Below are positions 16,098-19,000 of a stretch of DNA of 37,490 bases, piece by piece. The translations under genes and the position numbers were made by a program. The stretch is from Candidatus Scatovivens sp. (lineage in GTDB: Bacteria > Bacillota > Clostridia > TANB77 > CAG-508), in assembly GCA_045648625.1 (NCBI GenBank), contig JAZROJ010000044.1:1-37490 (forward strand), read 5' to 3'. Every line of letters starts with the position of its first letter. Position 1 is the first letter of the stretch. The notes below the pieces were generated by a model, which made no database searches, was not told the origin of the DNA, and was given only the letters and a program-made list of their open reading frames with translations.

Positions 16098-19000
16098 ATG
16101 AAAAAGAAATTAATAATTTTATTAATACTTGAAATTATTTTTCTAACCTGGATTATAGGATATTATGTATATGCAGAAATTGAAAATGGAATTTCAAGTG
16201 CAGATACTCCTAATATAGAAAATACTATTGGGAGATCACTTCCTGGAGATGGAAAAACAGAATATAAATATGAGCACATTGGTAGAAATGTTAGATATAA
16301 AGGTGAGTCAAGTGCTACTAAAGTAATAAAACGTAATGGGAAAGATTACGTCGGTGGTGGCGGTCCCACAATAGAAGAGGTCGTGAAAAGATTAAATAGC
16401 GTAAGATATAGTACATATGAAGCAAACCAATTAGATACACCGATAGATAGTGTGTTAGACGAAAATCCATTTGCAAGATCACTATTTTGTGTTGAATATT
16501 ATCAAGGAATAGGGTATTATTATGGATTTCTAACTAGAAGCGCAAATAGTACGGATAGTTTTAGTGGTGGAGAATTTTATGATAGTGGAGACCAGTATGT
16601 ATCTACGTATTTTCAATTAAGAGGACAAACCCTTACATCTCCCAGAACAAAATATAATGAAACAAGTAGTGATCTTAGATATGATTTGAAATCAAGAGTT
16701 ATAACAGGGCAGGATCAAAGTTTAAGACTGGATTCAAGTGTTGCAAACTGGGGAATAGGTGATTATAGAGAATCTACAAAATCTTATTCAGGATTTGGTT
16801 CAATTAGATCTAATATATTGTATTATTTGACAAATGAAAATACAGAAAGTTTGTACCAAAATTTAGATACAGGACTTAACAATCCAAGGGAAACAAACGT
16901 ATATGCCTATAGTTTAACTTTTGATGAAAAACTAACTGCAAACAATACTAATTATTGGTATGAAATTGGTCAAAGAGCTTTATGGGCAGAGACTGGACAA
17001 TCAGAGGGAAGTCATAAATCTTATAGTACATTAGATGATGCTGCTTACGCTATTGATGAATTAGATAAACAAATAGATATTCATGGGCAAAATCCAAAGG
17101 TGAGTACTTTGACAGGAAATAAAACTATAGTAACAGATATAAGTGCTACAAGAGATGTTATTGGAAATAACAAATACGAACCAACAGGCTCTGTTGTATA
17201 TCAAAATAAAGGTGACGGGCAAAATTATTATAGAATTGGTCCATTTAAAATGAGTGATTATGCATATGTATATAGTGATTATGTAGCATCATATTCAGGA
17301 AGAGAATTAACTGTTGATAAAAAATTAGCTGGTGGTATTGTATATGGAGAACTTGAGATAAATGGAAGTATTGTTCCAATTGGATATAATGAAAAAAATG
17401 GAAATGGTTTTACAAGAACAGATGGAAAAGGGAACGCTAAAATAGTATATCAAGACCCAAATGGAAATAAAACAACTCAAGGAGATAATAAGCGAACAGG
17501 AACTTATTTTAAAACACCAGAAGATTATCAATATCCATGGCCGAATTCTGTGTTTTATATTGATGTTCCGGTAAGTGCATGTGGAACAACAGGAACATTA
17601 AATTCTATCAATTTTGAATATAGAAGAACTTATTCAGATGGTGATGGATGGGTACTAAGTGGTAAATATATGGAAACTGAATGGAATGTAAAAGAGTTTC
17701 ATAAAGGATGTACAACTTATTATCTTCCTGCTGGTGGATCATGTTATGGTGATGATGGCGCATATAGGCAGTATGGATATAATGCTTATGTGTATTCAAG
17801 TGTAGCTACAGTTGATGGCAAGGGTGGATACCATAGAGATGTAGCATGTTCGCATATTGTTCATTTAAATCATTCCGAGCAAGAAATGATAGATGGTATT
17901 TGTGAAAACTATACAACATGGTATAGTTGTGGATGTGGCGCCAGACATTCTACTTGGGAAATAGATCAAGGAAAATGTAGTAATATTAAAATTAACTATA
18001 ATAGTTGTATGTGTTATAGAGATTATACGCATTATGTCTCAGGATATTTTGAATGTATACATACATATGAAGATTGTGAAGGTTTTACTTGGTCTTTGAT
18101 TAGAGGGCCAGAACCTAAATTATCTCAACCAATGCTTGCAGTACACGACGCATATACTAAGGTAGATTTATATACAAGGAAAAGTCCTGTAAACGTTCCG
18201 GTTGCTACTAAAATAACTGTTAATAAATATATTTGTAAAGTAGAACATACAGTAAAAGATGAAGAAGAAGACGCTTCAGAAGGCGAAAGCTATAAAAAAT
18301 ATGATGAAGCGTATGATTCTGAATTTGAAAATGAAAATAGAAAAAATATGTCAGAATCTCAAAAAAGTCAGGCAGACGCATCTTTTGAAGGAAAGAATCA
18401 AGTAAAAGTAGAAAGAGGAGACAGAATAATTTTTAAAATACTTTTAGAAAATTCTTCAGGAATAGGTGCAAGTGTAATGCTAAGAGATGTACTTCCTGAA
18501 TACTGTATTGTAAAATATATAAAAATAGGAAATTCTACTAAAAATATAGAAAGCTTGAAGGACGTAGAAACTTATTATAAAAAAGTAGATACTGCTGGAA
18601 CTCAAAATGAAGAGTATTTTATATCAAAGTGGATAGATGTACCTGCTGGTGGAACAACACAAATATTAGTAGTTCTTGATGCAACTGCAGCGAGTGGATA
18701 TACAATAAATAAGAATGAAGCTACAATAGTAACAGGAAATGAAGGATATAAGGCGGGAGATTTAGTAAAAGATGACATAGTACTAAATTATGTAAGAATA
18801 ATTGGAAGTAAAGGAGCTGTTGTAAATTCAGCAGAAATAAGTGGTGGAGAAATATATAAAACTTTAAAATCAACAGAGTATTATAGAGTAAAATCTTATG
18901 GTGTTGTTTTAGATAAATATATTTCAAGAGTTGAACATGAGACAACAGGAGAAGTAATATATCAAAGATATTTAGGATATAAAGATGAAAATGATAACTG

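What the first reader, a model, noticed from the sequence alone, without database searches (positions are those of the whole stretch)
16488..16973. B1 N-terminal region carries thioester-domain-like Cys and Gln motifs (FCVE ... GQRALW)
Gram-positive thioester adhesin domains (TED/TQXA; for example S. pyogenes Cpa and SfbI/FbaB, C. perfringens Cpe0147) form a Cys-Gln thioester. As I recall it, the Cys sits in a [YFL]C[VIL][DEQ]-type motif, the Gln in TQxA[IV]W about 150 residues downstream, and the domain lies at the N-terminal tip of a long stalk ending in a sortase signal. B1 has SLFCVEYYQG (Cys131) and YEIGQRALWAETG (Gln292), 161 residues apart and directly after the signal peptide. B2 has the same QRAxW motif at a similar spacing. 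If real, these giant proteins would bind host or matrix ligands covalently.
Basis: partly seen in the sequence, partly recalled or inferred. Interest (0 to 1): 0.65.

Follow-up and report, generated by a model that had tools for sequence, protein, structure and literature searches.

The report
Possible divergent thioester-type adhesin head

Summary
B1 (16098-20261) has FCVE with Cys131 (16488-16490) and GQRALW with Gln292 (16971-16973). B2 has LCAS (Cys74) and VQRAWW (Gln213). Cys, Gln and Trp are kept in all 12 family members found, at 24-44% identity.

- In known thioester domains (TEDs), TQxxΦW is a helix motif about 55 residues after the Cys. Its Gln does not form the bond; the bonding Gln lies further downstream.
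- Compact homologues show this Cys-to-QxAΦW spacing (49-65). B1's 161 comes from a ~94-residue insertion.
- No downstream Gln is conserved.
- Pfam TED and TED_2, NCBIfam and PDB searches give no hit.
- Profile-profile comparison with verified TED heads is weak (P 0.01-0.03, HH probability ≤3.5%). It beats shuffles and internal controls, and aligns Cys to Cys and Gln/Trp to Gln/Trp.
- Both AlphaFold runs failed (pLDDT 46 and 36), so the fold and the Cys-Gln distance are untested.

Best reading: a rare, very divergent TED-like adhesin head with an unresolved thioester partner.

B1 is also cut off from its sortase signal by a +1 frameshift at 20226-20229.

The parts
16098..16175 (+). B1 signal peptide (aa 1-26, MKKKLIILLILEIIFLTWIIGYYVYA|E)
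   Evidence: Read directly from the translation. An AGGAGG ribosome-binding site lies 8 nt upstream of the ATG.
16176..17096 (+). B1 N-terminal head (aa 27-333): the putative TED-like lobe
   Evidence: Family alignments. hhalign against TED head profiles gives P 0.012-0.033. No Pfam, NCBIfam or PDB hit. AlphaFold2 pLDDT is below 50 here.
16488..16490 (+). Cys131 codon (in SLFCVEY), invariant; aligns with the thioester Cys of strand C in known TEDs
   Evidence: hhalign places it on the Cys of the BaTIE, SaTIE, EfmTIE86, Cpa and pLS20-type TEDs.
16530..16808 (+). Variable insertion (aa ~145-237) between the Cys strand and the SNILYY/TNVYAY segment; absent in the compact homologues P0006 and P0008
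   Evidence: Insertion lengths run from -2 to 128 residues across members.
16893..16922 (+). Conserved TNVYAYSLTF segment (family consensus TNVFxYxxTFS)
   Evidence: hhalign with SaTIE places it on ISHFGYI, the position of the YNGYP-type segment.
16971..16985 (+). QRALW (Gln292...Trp296), invariant Gln and Trp; equivalent to the TQxxPhiW motif on helix alpha2 of TEDs
   Evidence: Aligned Q to Q and W to W with PDB TEDs. Modelled as a helix at low confidence.
17025..17087 (+). Predicted long helix (aa 310-330, STLDDAAYAIDELDKQIDIHG), a candidate for alpha3
   Evidence: AlphaFold2 helix H283-303 of the construct, pLDDT 57-71. hhalign places it on the TED alpha3.
17097..17657 (+). Beta-rich domain directly after the head (aa 334-520; invariant IGPFxMxDY and GGI)
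   Evidence: AlphaFold2 strands at pLDDT 70-80. Invariant columns. Foldseek found no significant match. Its position after alpha3 recalls the class II TED sandwich; that link is inference.
17580..18077 (+). Cys-rich module (12 Cys between aa 495 and 660); not part of the finding but part of the same protein
   Evidence: Cys positions. Cys/His-rich counterparts occur in P0002, P0004, L001, L017 and L018.
20226..20229 (+). C4 homopolymer where a +1 frameshift splits B1 (16098-20261) from the next ORF (20239-24420)
   Evidence: Deleting one C gives one uninterrupted 2773-aa ORF that reads ...EYTVMKPGEYMEYTIKLNV.... This is collinear with P0002's ...YTMVEPGGYIEYTTEV....
24256..24270 (+). IPPTG sortase-type sorting motif, followed by a hydrophobic segment and KKYRKRTIK, at the end of the second half of the B1 gene
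30105..30107 (+). B2 Cys74 codon (ILCAS), the paralogous position
30522..30536 (+). B2 QRAWW (Gln213...Trp217), the paralogous motif
37365..37379 (+). B2 TPPTG sorting motif

Best explanation
B1 is the front half of a single 2773-aa gene. B2 is its intact paralogue. Both are giant sortase-anchored fibrillar surface proteins of a low-GC gut Clostridium-type bacterium.

Their N-terminal tip is a rare and very divergent relative of the head lobe of Gram-positive thioester domains (TEDs).
- Cys131 occupies the place of the thioester Cys on strand C.
- Gln292 and Trp296 are the TQxxPhiW motif of helix alpha2, which packs against that Cys.
- A long helix follows (candidate alpha3), and then a beta-rich domain, as in class II TEDs.

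Inferred mechanism: Cys131 is the reactive centre of a covalent-adhesion head, carrying an internal thioester that a ligand amine attacks. The Gln partner is unresolved. No downstream Gln is conserved, so the only candidate supported by conservation is Gln292 itself. That would be a non-canonical geometry.

Shown: the motifs, their invariance, their collinearity and spacing, the protein architecture, and a weak profile-profile signal.
Inferred: the fold, the existence of any thioester, and covalent ligand capture.
For: 1. Cys131, Gln292 and Trp296 are the only invariant head residues at 24-44% identity. They are also kept in P0009, L001, L017 and L018.

2. No His or Asp is invariant in the head. 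That argues against a Cys-protease or transglutaminase-type site and fits an autocatalytic Cys/Gln chemistry.

3. The Cys to QxAPhiW spacing is 49 residues in P0006 and 65 in P0008. SaTIE has 54, counted from the sequence. EfmTIE86 has Cys88 and Trp146.

4. hhalign of the family head against TED heads:
- pLS20-type TED heads: score 20.2, P 0.012; 1 of 150 column shuffles reaches it.
- pLS20-type heads plus segments of four solved TEDs: 18.8, P 0.021; 0 of 100 shuffles reach it.
- The four solved TEDs alone (BaTIE, SaTIE, EfmTIE86, Cpa): 15.1; 1 of 100 shuffles reaches it. This alignment pairs C with C, Q with Q and W with W.
- Internal controls (A-protein N-terminus, B stalk, B sandwich) score 10.4-13.4, P 0.35-0.74.

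5. The architecture matches TIE-type adhesins: signal peptide, N-terminal head, long stalk with DUF11-type and SdrD_B-like repeats, and IPPTG/TPPTG plus a membrane segment.

6. Negative phmmer results carry little weight. A verified class II TED (TIEpLS20) also finds no solved TED by phmmer.
Against: - There is no hit to Pfam TED (PF08341) or TED_2 (PF20610), to any NCBIfam model, or to PDB sequences, by single sequence or by family profile.
- A small profile of true TED heads does find four solved TEDs of both classes. An HMM of TED heads scores the family at noise level.
- HH-suite probability is only 0.6-3.5%. SaTIE alone scores 11.4, equal to the shuffle mean. With the insertion left in, only the Cys strand aligns.
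- No Gln downstream of the alpha2-like motif is conserved in 12 members. Q375 and Q325 are variable. In TEDs the bonding Gln is one of the two universally conserved residues.
- Both AlphaFold2 models are unreliable in the head, so the Foldseek output is meaningless.
- In an anaerobe, a free surface Cys is less unusual than in aerobes (own knowledge).
Confidence: 0.4

Rival explanations
1. It is a new, unrelated adhesin or tip domain. The resemblance to TED motifs is convergent or coincidental. Cys131, Gln292 and Trp296 are conserved for structural or ligand-binding reasons, with no thioester.
For: No TED profile, NCBIfam model or PDB sequence matches. HH probability is at most 3.5%. A TED-head HMM scores the family at noise level. 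The family is tiny and isolated: 8 hits among 1.84 billion representatives. No canonical thioester Gln is present.
Against: Three motif elements are collinear with TEDs at matching spacing. The profile-profile score exceeds 99% of shuffles and all internal controls. An invariant lone Cys beside an invariant Gln and Trp, with no invariant His or Asp, is hard to explain otherwise.
Confidence: 0.3
2. It is a TED-derived head that has lost the thioester. The fold and the alpha2 Gln/Trp are kept, but Cys131 is a free thiol. It might form a disulfide, bind a metal, or react with a partner such as the co-encoded A protein.
For: The canonical downstream Gln is absent in all 12 members. The weak TED-head similarity is centred on the Cys strand. 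An A-type gene lies directly upstream of a B-type gene in five loci: twice in the window, and in L001, L002 and L018.
Against: If the bond had been lost, strict invariance of the Cys would not be expected, although a new role could maintain it. No experimental precedent was found in the papers read.
Confidence: 0.15
3. It is a canonical class II-like TED whose bonding Gln comes from a strand position that is not aligned across members. An example is B1 Gln375 in DGQNYYRIGPF, with a Gln at -2 to -13 of the GPF in B2, P0004, P0008, L001 and L018.
For: [quoted passage not shown] A beta-rich domain follows alpha3, as in class II. Six of 12 members have a Gln just before the invariant IGPF strand.
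Against: P0002, P0009, P0005, P0006, P0003 and L017 have no Gln there. P0006 has only two Gln after the motif, neither conserved. In class II TEDs the Gln follows the sandwich rather than opening it.
Confidence: 0.1

Closest known systems
Class II thioester domains of TIE proteins (BaTIE 6FWV, SaTIE 6FX6, EfmTIE86 6FWY, TIEpLS20 of plasmid pLS20)
   Same: Both form an N-terminal head on a sortase-anchored stalk. Both have an [FY]C-Phi-x motif and a QxxPhiW motif about 50-65 residues later (in compact members), followed by a long helix and then a beta-rich domain. The hhalign alignment is collinear, with Cys to Cys and Gln/Trp to Gln/Trp.
   Different: The family does not reach any TED profile threshold. 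B1 has a ~94-residue insertion after the Cys strand. The T of TQxxPhiW is replaced by A, G, S, V, C or E. No conserved Gln follows the beta domain, whereas BaTIE, SaTIE and EfmTIE86 bond through Gln266, Gln467 and Gln292. The downstream stalk is DUF11/SdrD_B-like plus a Cys-rich module, not CnaB isopeptide domains.
Class I thioester domains (S. pyogenes Cpa, SfbI, FbaB; C. perfringens CpTIE; S. pneumoniae PnTIE)
   Same: The same two motifs and the same N-terminal placement. The Cpa 4C0Z head segments align with the family motifs.
   Different: In class I the bonding Gln lies 129-153 residues after the Cys, on a strand that closes the barrel. The family has no conserved Gln there. No sequence-level match was found.
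Complement C3 / alpha-2-macroglobulin thioester (CGEQ)
   Same: The same Cys-Gln thioester chemistry, used for covalent capture (own knowledge).
   Different: There the Cys and Gln are three residues apart in one motif, in an unrelated alpha-helical domain. Nothing like CGEQ is present here.

Membership tests
Gram-positive thioester domain (TED; Pfam PF08341 and PF20610, NCBIfam TQXA_dom) | Scores above threshold against the curated TED profile HMMs | tested here: not met
   No Pfam or NCBIfam hit for B1, B2 or any of the 7 aligned heads, even at E up to 10. The verified TIEpLS20 does hit PF20610 (28.8 bits) and PF08341 (23.6 bits) in the same library.
Gram-positive thioester domain (TED) | [YFL]C-Phi-zeta motif carrying the thioester Cys | tested here: met
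   FCVE in B1, LCAS in B2, and [FY]C[LV]x in all 12 members. The Cys is invariant. Its strand context could not be checked.
Gram-positive thioester domain (TED) | TQxxPhiW motif on helix alpha2, about 55 residues after the Cys | tested here: met
   xQxAPhiW (QxTPhiW in L017), with Gln and Trp invariant. Spacing is 49 in P0006 and 65 in P0008, against 54 in SaTIE. It is 161 in B1 and 139 in B2 because of an insertion. The Thr is not kept. The helix is predicted only at low confidence.
Gram-positive thioester domain (TED) | A universally conserved bond-forming Gln on strand Q, 129-204 residues after the Cys (Phi-Q-zeta-Phi-Phi) | tested here: not met
   No Gln column after the QxAPhiW motif is conserved in 12 members. 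Q375, Q325 and Q485 are all variable. P0006 has only two later Gln, neither conserved.
Gram-positive thioester domain (TED) | TED fold: a beta-barrel plus a three-helix subdomain, with Cys and Gln side chains in bonding distance | tested here: inconclusive
   AlphaFold2 on B1 27-520 gave mean pLDDT 46, with residues 1-282 below 50. On the compact homologue P0006 it gave pLDDT 36. Foldseek found no match at E <= 0.001.
Gram-positive thioester domain (TED) | Detectable remote homology to verified TEDs by profile-profile comparison | tested here: inconclusive
   hhalign scores are 15.1-20.2, P 0.012-0.095, HH probability 0.6-3.5%. At most 1 of 100-150 shuffles reaches the real score, and internal controls score 10.4-13.4.
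Gram-positive thioester domain (TED) | An internal Cys-Gln thioester: a -17 Da mass defect lost in the Cys mutant, and reactivity with amines | not testable with these tools
   This needs recombinant protein and mass spectrometry.
TIE-type / fibrillar sortase-anchored adhesin architecture | Signal peptide, N-terminal adhesive head, repetitive stalk, and a C-terminal LPXTG-like signal with a membrane segment and a basic tail | tested here: met
   Signal peptides and IPPTG/TPPTG tails. DUF11-type and SdrD_B-like stalk hits, mostly weak. In this assembly the B1 head is separated from its anchor by a +1 frameshift.

The most novel reading that the evidence does not exclude
This would be a third structural class of thioester domain. 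In it, the strand-C Cys (Cys131) bonds directly to the Gln of the alpha2 QxAPhiW helix (Gln292) rather than to a downstream strand Gln. It would be carried by giant surface proteins, always encoded directly after an A-type gene, in herbivore-gut Clostridia. There it could give covalent attachment to a gut, plant or partner-protein amine.
Probability: 0.15. Interest if true: 0.7.

Novelty: new variant of a known kind. Interest (0 to 1): 0.45.

Why it matters
Thioester domains are the only known way for bacteria to bind a target covalently, and the examples studied experimentally in the papers read here come from pathogens and one conjugative plasmid. A TED-like head in giant proteins of uncultured herbivore-gut Clostridia would extend that chemistry to commensal and fibre-associated anaerobes. 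If Gln292 really is the partner, it would reveal a new bond geometry. That would be useful both for recognising such domains in sequence and as a new protein-ligation scaffold. If no thioester forms, the family is still an unannotated head domain with an unexplained invariant Cys/Gln/Trp triad. Only about a dozen members were found among billions of predicted proteins.

Tried and rejected
1. Sequence and profile searches against Pfam, NCBIfam and PDB found no TED.

2. The word-indexed homologue searches were almost empty:
- B1 1-400 found nothing.
- The family alignment found only P0009 and P0003.
- TIEpLS20 found only 3 proteins.
The multiple alignments therefore stayed at about 10 sequences.

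3. AlphaFold2 was run twice: B1 27-520, and the compact homologue P0006 with a hand-checked alignment (A8). Both were unreliable.

5. My first reading of the B1/next-ORF junction was a 32-bp insertion flanked by a GAATATAC repeat. I rejected it. Comparison with P0002 and removal of one C from the C4 run show a simple +1 frameshift.

6. A cysteine protease, transglutaminase, CHAP or sortase site was considered and rejected, because the head has no invariant His, Asp or Arg.

7. Gln375 was considered as the canonical thioester partner and rejected as a general solution, because it is not conserved.

8. Laying manure and bovine metagenome contigs on the frameshift region did not cover the junction.

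9. The first JGI metagenome scan (IGPF motif) found nothing. The second found two loci.

10. The exact-sequence lookup of B1 found no contig on record.
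Full report
**What is in the window.** The window has 27% G+C. Positions 60-9845 hold cell-envelope housekeeping genes: VanW/G5, an M23 peptidase, MecA, RadC, MreC, MreD, a PBP2-type transpeptidase and MinC. Five very large plus-strand ORFs follow:
- A1, 10296-16085, 1929 aa
- B1, 16098-20261, 1387 aa
- an ORF at 20239-24420, 1393 aa
- A2, 24788-29893, 1701 aa
- B2, 29886-37490, 2534 aa

A1 and A2 carry DUF11 and SdrD_B-like domains. 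B1 and B2 have almost no family hits.

**The observation.** It is confirmed exactly. Cys131 in SLFCVEYYQG is codon 16488-16490. Gln292 in YEIGQRALWAETG is codon 16971-16973, and Trp296 is 16983-16985. Cys131 is the only Cys in the first 494 residues, and each motif occurs once in the protein. B2 has ILCAS (Cys74) and VQRAWW (Gln213), 139 residues apart. In shuffles of the N-terminal regions, both motifs appear in the right order in only 0.1% to 0.005% of trials.

**The family.** The head is very rare.
- phmmer of B1 27-500 against 1.84 billion representative proteins found 8 proteins, one of them B1 itself.
- Further members are P0009, a roe-deer caecum Clostridia MAG (L001) and two metagenome contigs (L017 and L018).
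- Near-identical words occur in manure and bovine metagenome runs.
- In an alignment of seven heads at 24-44% identity, the invariant columns are Cys131, Gln292 and Trp296, plus GPF, Y and GI in the next domain. The later members keep all three head residues.
- No His or Asp is invariant in the head. That argues against a Cys-protease-type site.

The Cys-to-Gln distance is not fixed. It is 49 residues in P0006 and 65 in P0008. It is longer elsewhere because a variable insertion of up to 128 residues (about 94 in B1) follows the Cys strand.

**What the literature says about TED motifs.** Walden et al. 2015 (PMC4450167) and Miller et al. 2018 (PMC6194298) agree on three points.
- The thioester Cys lies in [YFL]C-Phi-zeta on strand C.
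- TQxxPhiW lies on the central helix alpha2. Its Gln and Trp hydrogen-bond the Cys backbone and are not required for bond formation.
- The bonding Gln sits in a weak strand motif further downstream. The known pairs are SfbI 109/261, PnTIE 94/247, CpTIE 138/267, BaTIE 71/266, SaTIE 296/467 and EfmTIE86 88/292.

In class II TEDs a beta-sandwich is inserted after alpha3 and supplies that Gln. By the canonical layout Gln292 is the alpha2 Gln.

The compact homologues fit this layout well. In SaTIE the Cys-to-Gln(alpha2) distance is 54 (sequence). In EfmTIE86 the relevant residues are Cys88 and Trp146.

**Membership tests.**
- *Curated profiles:* none match. TIEpLS20, a verified class II TED fetched from plasmid pLS20, does hit PF20610 and PF08341 in the same library.
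- *PDB:* neither B1, B2 nor the family profile finds a TED. phmmer negatives carry little weight here, because TIEpLS20 itself finds no solved TED by phmmer.
- *Positive control:* a profile of TIEpLS20-type heads from plasmids, extended step by step, recovers SaTIE, BaTIE, Cpa and EfmTIE86.
- *Reverse search:* an HMM of these heads scores the family at noise level.

**Profile-profile comparison.** hhalign of the family head gave the following.

| Compared with | Score | P | Shuffles reaching it |
|---|---|---|---|
| pLS20-type TED heads | 20.2 | 0.012 | 1 of 150 |
| pLS20-type heads plus four solved TED segments | 18.8 | 0.021 | 0 of 100 |
| The four solved TEDs alone | 15.1 | 0.095 | 1 of 100 |
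| SaTIE alone | 11.4 | 0.31 | equal to the shuffle mean |

- The alignment with the solved TEDs pairs C with C, Q with Q and W with W.
- Controls from the same proteins scored 10.4-13.4.
- HH probability stays at or below 3.5%.
- With the insertion left in, only the Cys strand aligns.

This signal is weak. It points in the expected direction but does not establish homology.

**The thioester Gln.** No Gln after the QxAPhiW motif is conserved.
- Gln375, in front of the invariant IGPF strand, has a Gln nearby in about half of the members.
- Gln325 alternates with Glu.
- P0006 has only two later Gln, and neither is conserved.

So the canonical defining residue is not met. If a thioester exists, the only partner supported by conservation is Gln292. 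In known TEDs that residue already lies against the Cys. This pairing is an inference and would be a new geometry.

- B1 27-520 gave mean pLDDT 46, with residues 1-282 below 50. Helices were predicted over the QRALW segment and over 310-330, and a beta domain at pLDDT 70-80.
- P0006 gave pLDDT 36.
- Foldseek returned nothing below E = 1.

**Architecture and context.** B1 and the following ORF are one gene. Removing one C from the C4 run at 20226-20229 gives a continuous 2773-aa ORF. Its junction matches the full-length homologue P0002. That ORF ends in IPPTG, a hydrophobic segment and KKYRKRTIK. B2 ends in TPPTG. As assembled, the B1 head is therefore not attached to its anchor. An A-type gene lies directly upstream of a B-type gene in five loci: twice in the window, and in L001, L002 and L018.

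**Verdict.** The thioester-domain reading is plausible but unproven, and it was mis-specified in its choice of Gln. I rate the possibilities as follows:
- TED-like head with a reactive Cys131: 0.4
- unrelated new head domain: 0.3
- TED-derived head without a thioester: 0.15
- canonical TED with an unaligned Gln: 0.1

Mass spectrometry of the recombinant head and its C131A and Q292A mutants would decide between them.

Noticed in passing
window 20226-20229 (C4 run); ORFs 16098-20261 and 20239-24420: B1 and the next ORF are one gene split by a +1 frameshift in a CCCC homopolymer. Deleting one C gives a single 2773-aa ORF collinear with the homologue P0002. This could be an assembly error, a pseudogene or phase variation.
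   Followed up: partly
L017 about 1105-1148: A metagenomic homologue of B1 is also interrupted inside its head. The Cys-bearing part (ORF 351-1148) and the QNTIW-bearing part are in different frames, around the TN|VALTFS segment.
   Followed up: no
window 17580-18077 (B1 aa 495-660): A Cys-rich module with 12 Cys in about 165 residues, with several His, sits in an extracellular protein. Cys/His-rich counterparts exist in P0002, P0004, L001, L017 and L018. B2 lacks it. No family hit was found. It may be a metal-binding or disulfide-knotted module.
   Followed up: no
window 31158-31223 (B2 aa 425-446): A run of 22 consecutive Asp residues in B2, followed by a Pro-rich linker (PPTPPEP), at the place where B1 has the Cys-rich module.
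   Followed up: no
window 10296-37490; L001 3601-18241; L002; L018: An A-type gene (DUF11 + SdrD_B, about 1700-1900 aa) is always directly followed by a B-type gene. The pair is tandemly duplicated in the window. The pairing suggests the two proteins work together.
   Followed up: partly
window 15942-15956, 24256-24270, 29771-29785, 37365-37379: The sorting motifs are non-canonical: IPPTG and TPPTG in the B proteins, and LVSTG and (T)VKTG in the A proteins. From memory they resemble the (S/P)PXTG and NVQTG signals of Clostridioides difficile sortase B substrates. No sortase gene lies in the window.
   Followed up: no
window 29886-29897: The GTG start listed for B2 is probably wrong. An ATG at 29895 follows an AGGAGG at the right distance and lies just after the A2 stop codon (29891-29893), which suggests translational coupling. 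B2 residue numbers would drop by 3.
   Followed up: partly
window 9390-9845 (- strand): A 151-aa ORF between minC and A1 has no Pfam hit.
   Followed up: no
window 10296-11300 (A1 N-terminal third): A1 has a long, highly acidic, low-complexity Glu/Asn/Ile-rich region near its N-terminus and another before its SdrD_B-like domain.
   Followed up: no
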